Source: Octopus vulgaris (taxonomy: Eukaryota). Taken from it: 64,000 nt of DNA. The notes beneath the pieces were generated by a model. That model did no database searches. It had not been told where the DNA came from and saw nothing but the letters and a program-made list of their open reading frames with translations. The stretch covers positions 8,866,001-8,930,000 of the forward strand of contig OX597817.1 of NCBI GenBank assembly GCA_951406725.2. Reading direction: 5' to 3'. Position 1 is the stretch's first letter. The number at the start of each line of letters is the position of its first letter. Positions 8,311 to 8,360 of this stretch are shown here, piece by piece. The position numbers were made by a program, and so were the translations under genes.

Positions 8311-8360
8311 TTTGTCAAAATATTTTCGTCGCTAAAATCCGCGACCTGTTCACTGACAAA
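8311..8360 (-). ncRNA. Minimal type-I hammerhead ribozyme candidate, G3:C8 core variant
   Basis: TTTGTCA-GTGAACA-G-GTCGC-GGATTTTA-GCGAC-GAA-AATATT-T-TGACAAA: 7-bp helix I, 5-bp helix II, palindromic helix III. Confidence 0.7.

What the first reader, a model, noticed from the sequence alone, without database searches (positions are those of the whole stretch)
8311..8360. G3:C8 hammerhead variant with fully paired helices
The minus strand reads UUUGUCA GUGAACA G GUCGC(GGAUUUUA)GCGAC GAA AAUAUU U UGACAAA. Both positions of the 3:8 pair are swapped relative to the canonical core, while U4, G5, A6, A9, G12, A13, A14, A15.1 and U16.1 are retained. Helix I is 7/7 and helix II is 5/5 Watson-Crick. 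Helix III is the palindrome AAUAUU. This is the best single candidate for an active ribozyme; the predicted cleavage triplet is UUU.
Basis: partly seen in the sequence, partly recalled or inferred. Interest (0 to 1): 0.75.

Follow-up and report, generated by a model that had tools for sequence, protein, structure and literature searches.

The report
Swapped-core hammerhead in Penelope retroelement
This 50-base motif is one of thousands of copies of the end of an octopus jumping gene; it has the shape of a self-cutting "hammerhead" RNA with two paired core letters exchanged, and it would likely cut slowly and only as a pair, which is untested.

Summary
The motif lies in a 208-bp solo end-piece (pLTR, 8170-8377, minus strand) of a young Penelope-like retrotransposon. 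The genome holds 5,824 exact copies of the G3:C8 core 20-mer. The layout is the known minimal type I Penelope hammerhead: extra base after A9, palindromic helix III, predicted to need a dimer. The swap is real and heritable. In 14 of 14 aligned hammerheads behind related ORFs, positions 3 and 8 form a Watson-Crick pair of all four kinds (C:G 7, U:A 5, A:U 1, G:C 1). Octopus sister lineages keep C3:G8 on a similar helix scaffold. Against strict need for cutting: 206 copies carry an unpaired G3.G8, a young sister family has lost A9, and no pile-up of copy starts at the cut site was seen. I found no natural G3:C8 in the papers I could read; a key paper (Lunse et al.) was not held. This scan already noted the swap elsewhere in this genome. 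New variant of a known kind; cleavage untested.

The parts
8170..8377 (-). Solo pseudo-LTR plus tail of a young Penelope-like element (5'-truncated insertion)
   Evidence: matches 3' ends of RT/GIY-YIG elements at 97-100%
8311..8360 (-). Minimal type I hammerhead motif with G3:C8 core
8354..8360 (-). Helix I, 5' strand
8346..8353 (-). Core positions 3-9 (G3 at 8353, C8 at 8348) and the extra G at 8346
8328..8345 (-). Helix II (5 bp, G10.1-C11.1 closing) with 8-nt loop
8319..8327 (-). G12 A13 A14 and the 6-nt palindrome (helix III, predicted intermolecular)
8311..8318 (-). U17 (predicted cut 3' of 8318) and helix I 3' strand
   Evidence: cut site inferred from hammerhead numbering
8170..8261 (-). 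First 30 codons of the element's ORF; likely start ATG at 8261, 56 nt after the predicted cut
   Evidence: frame continues into the body of full copy L382 and is 38% identical (E 7e-26) to the N-terminus of the sister family's intact ORF
8170..8228 (-). About 60-nt 'tail' present in some copies and absent from others
   Evidence: 36 of 108 hits end at element position 149-151, 68 of 108 at 202-208
8382..8437 (.). (TA)n flank; a shorter (TA)n lies at about 8147-8169 (target microsatellite)

Best explanation
The motif is the pLTR hammerhead-type element of a young, high-copy Penelope-like retrotransposon family with a fixed G3:C8 core, and it likely acts as a slow self-cleaving ribozyme only when two copies pair through the palindromic helix III, probably helped by the element's own protein. 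Shown: sequence, copy number, link to an RT + GIY-YIG ORF, two same-strand hammerheads flanking a full element, position 56 nt before the likely ORF start, covariation of the 3:8 pair among relatives. Inferred: dimer formation in long pLTR-ORF-pLTR or tandem transcripts, slow cutting after UUU that trims the element RNA just upstream of its ORF, long-term selection for a paired 3:8. The window copy itself is a solo insertion that could cut only in trans if it is transcribed at all.
For: [quoted passage not shown] L382 has two same-strand cores 4,261 nt apart around the body. 3:8 pairs in 14 of 14 aligned motifs, four pair types, 0 of 500 shuffles as high; the descriptors left positions 3 and 8 free. 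Sister lineages in the genome: 46 of 65 C3:G8, 15 of 65 U3 with G8 on a similar scaffold; older relatives at about 67-80% identity keep G3:C8 while position 7 and loop II change. Extra base after A9, G10.1-C11.1 and palindrome match the published consensus (PMC4209133). The C3G/G8C double mutant partly restores cleavage in a Penelope hammerhead (PMC11167929).
Against: No cleavage data. 206 copies have G3.G8 against about 16 expected for one transversion (9 C3 among the first 100 of 175 non-G3 copies listed), so unpaired cores seem to have been copied. The young sister family with intact ORFs has C instead of A9. The A/U-only palindrome is weak (duplex -0.2 kcal/mol; modelled dimer -27.2 against -26.6 for two monomers, and an alternative duplex at -31.3). 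No pile-up of copy starts at the cut site among 240 hits (biased sample). Lab G3:C8 rescue is only partial, and hammerhead mutants did not impair insertion in vitro. Within this clade G:C is seen in one related octopus lineage only, so it may be a single event. Pfam and PDB sequence searches gave no hit for the family's own ORF.
Confidence: 0.6

Rival explanations
1. Catalytically negligible relic or structural signal: the fold is kept as a protein-binding or translation element just upstream of the ORF, or simply hitch-hikes, and G3:C8 RNA is hardly cut in vivo.
For: G3.G8 copies amplified; A9C in a young sister family; copy starts do not cluster at the cut; in the anole element catalytic mutants still insert and no RNA-seq reads ended at the cut site (PMC11167929).
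Against: 3:8 is a tertiary core pair with no role in the secondary structure, yet it stays paired in 14 of 14 aligned relatives; G8 copies nest inside G3:C8 lineages, are mostly older, and the youngest expansion is paired.
Confidence: 0.3
2. Efficient stand-alone monomeric ribozyme at this locus.
For: Perfect helices I and II and all other core bases present.
Against: Helix III cannot close in a monomer; single minimal motif inactive in PMC4209133; the copy is one of thousands.
Confidence: 0.07
3. Chance look-alike.
For: Rfam has no hammerhead hit.
Against: 0 hits in 300 shuffles; position in the pLTR and homologous canonical-core motifs in sister families.
Confidence: 0.02

Closest known systems
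Minimal type I hammerheads of metazoan Penelope-like elements (Cervera and de la Pena 2014, PMC4209133; read: main text parts 1-2 of 4, supplement parts 1-2 of 3)
   Same: In the pLTR; extra base between 9 and 10.1; G10.1-C11.1; palindromic helix III; predicted dimer; thousands of solo copies.
   Different: G3:C8; that paper names U3-A8 as the core covariation, and the Figure S3 rows I saw all start with C3 or U3. Helix I here is longer (7 bp).
PAc (Poseidon) hammerhead of Anolis (Frangieh et al. 2024, PMC11167929; passages read)
   Same: pLTR hammerhead next to the ORF start; 'tail' from two RT start sites; AT-rich targets; C3G/G8C double mutant partly active.
   Different: There G3:C8 is an engineered mutant and the cut lies 26 nt inside the ORF; here it is natural and the predicted cut lies 56 nt before the likely ATG; this element has the Zn-finger-like linker that Penelope/Poseidon lack.
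Natural core variants (Perreault et al. 2011, PMC3088659; section 8 read)
   Same: Natural covariation of the 3:8 pair.
   Different: Reports U3:A8, not G3:C8 or A3:U8, in the section read.
Short-stem-III hammerheads of Penelope-like elements (Lunse, Weinberg, Breaker; not held, seen only as a citation in PMC6765202)
   Same: Per the review: PLE-linked, cleave as dimers.
   Different: Could not check whether G3:C8 examples are included; this limits the novelty claim.
Neptune / Nematis clades of Penelope-like elements (Craig et al. 2021, PMC8557442; passages read)
   Same: C-terminal GIY-YIG, CX2-5CxxC linker, (TA)n targets, inverted 5'-truncated copies, tail.
   Different: Tail about 60 nt rather than 30-40; Neptune versus Nematis not resolved (no reference tree).

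Membership tests
Hammerhead ribozyme (type I) | Three-helix junction with helices I and II and order core-II-GAAA-III-NUH | tested here: met
Hammerhead ribozyme (type I) | Literal consensus C3 and G8 | tested here: not met
   G3 and C8; Rfam gives no hit
Hammerhead ribozyme (type I) | Watson-Crick pair between 3 and 8 | tested here: met
   G:C here; 14 of 14 aligned motifs paired
Hammerhead ribozyme (type I) | U4 G5 A6 A9 G12 A13 A14 A15.1 U16.1 and H17 | tested here: met
Hammerhead ribozyme (type I) | Self-cleavage 3' of position 17 | not testable with these tools
   no raw RNA reads were offered; needs a bench assay
Hammerhead ribozyme (type I) | Loop I / loop II tertiary contact | not tested
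   not looked for systematically; minimal PLE motifs are described without a defined loop 1
Minimal PLE hammerhead | Extra base between 9 and 10.1, G10.1-C11.1, palindromic helix III | tested here: met
Minimal PLE hammerhead | Located in the pLTR, two same-strand copies around a full element | tested here: met
   L382, cores at 2742 and 7003
Minimal PLE hammerhead | Active as a dimer | tested here: inconclusive
   modelled dimer only marginally more stable than monomers; no assay
Penelope-like element, C-terminal EN | Telomerase-like RT followed by GIY-YIG endonuclease in one ORF | tested here: met
   motifs; fold best matches TERT; relatives hit RVT_1 and GIY-YIG weakly; own ORF has no Pfam hit
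Penelope-like element, C-terminal EN | pLTR, tail, inverted 5'-truncated copies, microsatellite targets | tested here: met
Neptune/Nematis clades | CX2-5CxxC linker between RT and EN | tested here: met
   Cx3Cx2C; definition
Neptune/Nematis clades | Placement in an RT tree with named references | not tested
   no named reference set was fetched
Non-LTR retrozyme | Tandem hammerhead-bearing monomers without ORF | tested here: not met
   window copy is solo; a tandem array of 8 pLTR copies exists at L384

The most novel reading that the evidence does not exclude
One Penelope clade has sampled all four Watson-Crick forms of the hammerhead 3:8 core pair, and the octopus G3:C8 form is a deliberately slow, dimer- and protein-gated cutter placed 56 nt before the ORF start, switching the element RNA between an uncut template for retrotransposition and a cut, cap-less mRNA. 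Consensus-based searches would then have missed a whole set of Penelope ribozymes.
Probability: 0.15. Interest if true: 0.72.

Novelty: new variant of a known kind. Interest (0 to 1): 0.45.

Why it matters
G3:C8 is a classic laboratory rescue mutant; a natural family with thousands of copies, beside C3:G8 sister families on a similar scaffold and a derived unpaired G3.G8 sub-set, is a ready natural series for asking how much cleavage a Penelope element needs, an open question in the papers read. It also means CUGANGA-based descriptors and Rfam miss abundant Penelope hammerheads. The kind of system is known, and this locus is an ordinary dispersed copy.

Tried and rejected
Rfam, both thresholds: no hammerhead. 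Pfam and PDB sequence search of the family's ORF: nothing. Sequencing runs: no RNA holder listed on record; contigs only, so no strand, start or cut site could be read; no host gene structure emerged for window 1600-11000. Contigs from four coded organisms cover the core without a listed difference of 5% or more at positions 3 or 8; presence only. 5'-start test for cut-site pile-up: none seen in 240 hits, but most loci were chosen by a core pattern, and a stricter rerun was confounded by subfamily mismatches. Idea that G3.G8 is the evolutionary intermediate: rejected, since G8 copies sit inside G3:C8 lineages on at least five loop backgrounds and the older outgroup is G3:C8 (midpoint-rooted FastTree on about 147 nt, no support values read). 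Many matches came from an unrelated abundant repeat and were ignored. Rows left out of alignment A2: metagenome hits not on the ORF strand just behind the ORF or with weak scores, including one unpaired C3.A8 hit (L191) and paired ones (L171 minus, L189, L210); 13 of 25 loci with ORF ends gave no hit; L152 was kept although its helix I is poor. Literature searches for a natural G3:C8: none found in listings; Lunse et al., Przybilski and Hammann 2007, Martick and Scott 2006 were not held.

Full report
Observation. Helix I (7 bp) and helix II (5 bp) form in the minimum-energy fold, z -3.4. A hammerhead descriptor hits only this site in the window and never in 300 dinucleotide shuffles. Rfam does not see it. 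An unpaired G lies between A9 and G10.1.

What it belongs to. A DNA search of the 2.8-Gb own genome gave 1,366 candidates, the 40 scored being 99-100% identical over the query. The shared unit is about 205 bp and is usually flanked by (TA)n; several loci hold inverted pairs. [quoted passage not shown] Pfam and PDB sequence searches missed this ORF; among 35 aligned relatives 6 hit RVT_1 and 3 GIY-YIG, and the predicted fold (pLDDT 87.6) ranks telomerase RTs first, with weak E-values around 1e-6. The closest named protein is labelled Octopus vulgaris (54% identical) and is itself encoded in this genome. Copies end at two places, element position 149-151 (36 of 108) or 202-208 (68 of 108; 208 is the end of the query), the Penelope 'tail'. 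L382 has two same-strand cores 4,261 nt apart around a body, though its frame is interrupted. The frame starts in the pLTR at an ATG 56 nt after the predicted cut and is homologous to the N-terminus of the sister family's intact ORF (38%, E 7e-26). So the window holds a solo, 5'-truncated end of a Neptune/Nematis-type Penelope-like element (definitions: PMC8557442, passages).

Is the swap real? Exact 20-mer counts: G3:C8 5,824, G3.G8 206, G3 with A or U at 8, 143, any non-G at 3, 175, with no C3:G8 among the first 100 listed. Older related octopus repeats keep G3:C8 while position 7 and loop II differ: 21 of 29 matches, 16 of them outside the window's own family by loop type, at about 67-80% identity where they align. 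Other lineages with a similar helix II scaffold have G8 with C3 (46 of 65), U3 (15) or G3 (4) (the pattern fixed G8); several C3:G8 ones are older copies of the sister Penelope family. In metagenome contigs with related ORFs (62 loci), 12 of 25 loci with sequence behind the ORF had a motif of the same layout on the ORF strand. With the window and sister motifs, 14 of 14 pair at 3:8: C:G 7, U:A 5, A:U 1, G:C 1; 0 of 500 shuffles reach this, though the shuffle ignores relatedness. One unpaired hit on the opposite strand (L191) and other off-position hits were left out. The swap is therefore best read as a compensatory change from C3:G8, possibly a single event in the octopus lineage.

How it likely works. 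The layout matches the minimal Penelope hammerheads: extra base after 9, G10.1-C11.1, palindrome at helix III; a single motif did not cleave, dimers cleaved weakly (PMC4209133). In the anole element the hammerhead needed the protein, the C3G/G8C double mutant partly restored cleavage, and catalytic mutants still inserted (PMC11167929). Here helix III cannot close in a monomer, and the modelled dimer gains little energy. I infer slow, dimer- and probably protein-assisted cutting after UUU in long element transcripts, trimming the RNA just upstream of the ORF. The window copy has no partner in the window and could act only in trans; its transcription is not shown.

Results against. The 206 G3.G8 copies are about 13 times the roughly 16 expected from the opposite transversion at position 3; they are mostly older (about 80-95% identical), occur on several loop backgrounds, nest within G3:C8 lineages, and some sit in inverted pairs whose other arm has C8. 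The young sister family with intact 1,312-codon frames has C at position 9 while its older copies have A9. Copy starts do not pile up at the cut site in a biased sample of 240. Together these suggest cutting is dispensable in the short run, even if pairing is kept over long times.

Novelty. Natural U3:A8 is published (PMC3088659 section 8; PMC4209133). Searches for natural G3:C8 showed only engineered mutants (PMC3884650 passages; PMC11167929). Lunse et al., the largest survey of these motifs, was not held, so prior description cannot be excluded; bioRxiv supplements were not seen. PMC13725137 (passages) reports type I hammerheads aiding cap-independent translation in viral 5'-UTRs, which prompts the novel reading. 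PMC10085705 (passages), PMC6765202 (passages and section 11 part 2) and bioRxiv 10.64898/2026.07.22.740005 (part 1 of 5) added background only.

Verdict. Real, heritable core variant of a known ribozyme type in a known class of retroelement; this locus is an ordinary copy; activity untested. Interest 0.45.

Noticed in passing
L262:6239-6298 (G000:C22) and L150:2485-2545: The young sister Penelope family, with many intact 1,312-codon frames, has C instead of A9 and a helix III palindrome with a central mismatch; a metagenome relative also has C9. Older sister copies have A9.
   Followed up: partly
L188:1698-1754: A natural A3:U8 hammerhead-like motif behind a related Penelope ORF in a metagenome contig.
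   Followed up: partly
L330-L359 (e.g. L339, L352, L358): An old octopus lineage with U3 and G8 (wobble), 15 of 65 matches, sharing loop and flanks.
   Followed up: partly
L216, L230, L239: Inverted pairs whose two arms differ at position 8 and in loop II, as if copied from two different template RNAs; other pairs (L037, L044) share private changes.
   Followed up: no
L384:5612-6954 (G000:C28): Tandem array of 8 pLTR copies with G3:C8 cores, period about 170-190 bp, retrozyme-like.
   Followed up: no
G000:C16: Older copies and G3.G8 copies look concentrated on this contig (17 of the first 100 listed G8 matches lie in its first 5.2 Mb).
   Followed up: no
element start, window 8370-8377: 122 of 240 hits begin 50-70 nt upstream of the predicted cut; may mark a transcription start in the pLTR, but the sample is biased.
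   Followed up: partly
window 37021-39540 (-): 839-codon ORF with RVT_1 and a weak endonuclease hit: a LINE fragment.
   Followed up: partly
window 33975-34542 and 54233-54976: 184-bp tandem arrays (3 and 4 units) of a related unit; a piece of similar sequence lies at about 8060-8110 (recalled as an octopus SINE, not checked).
   Followed up: no
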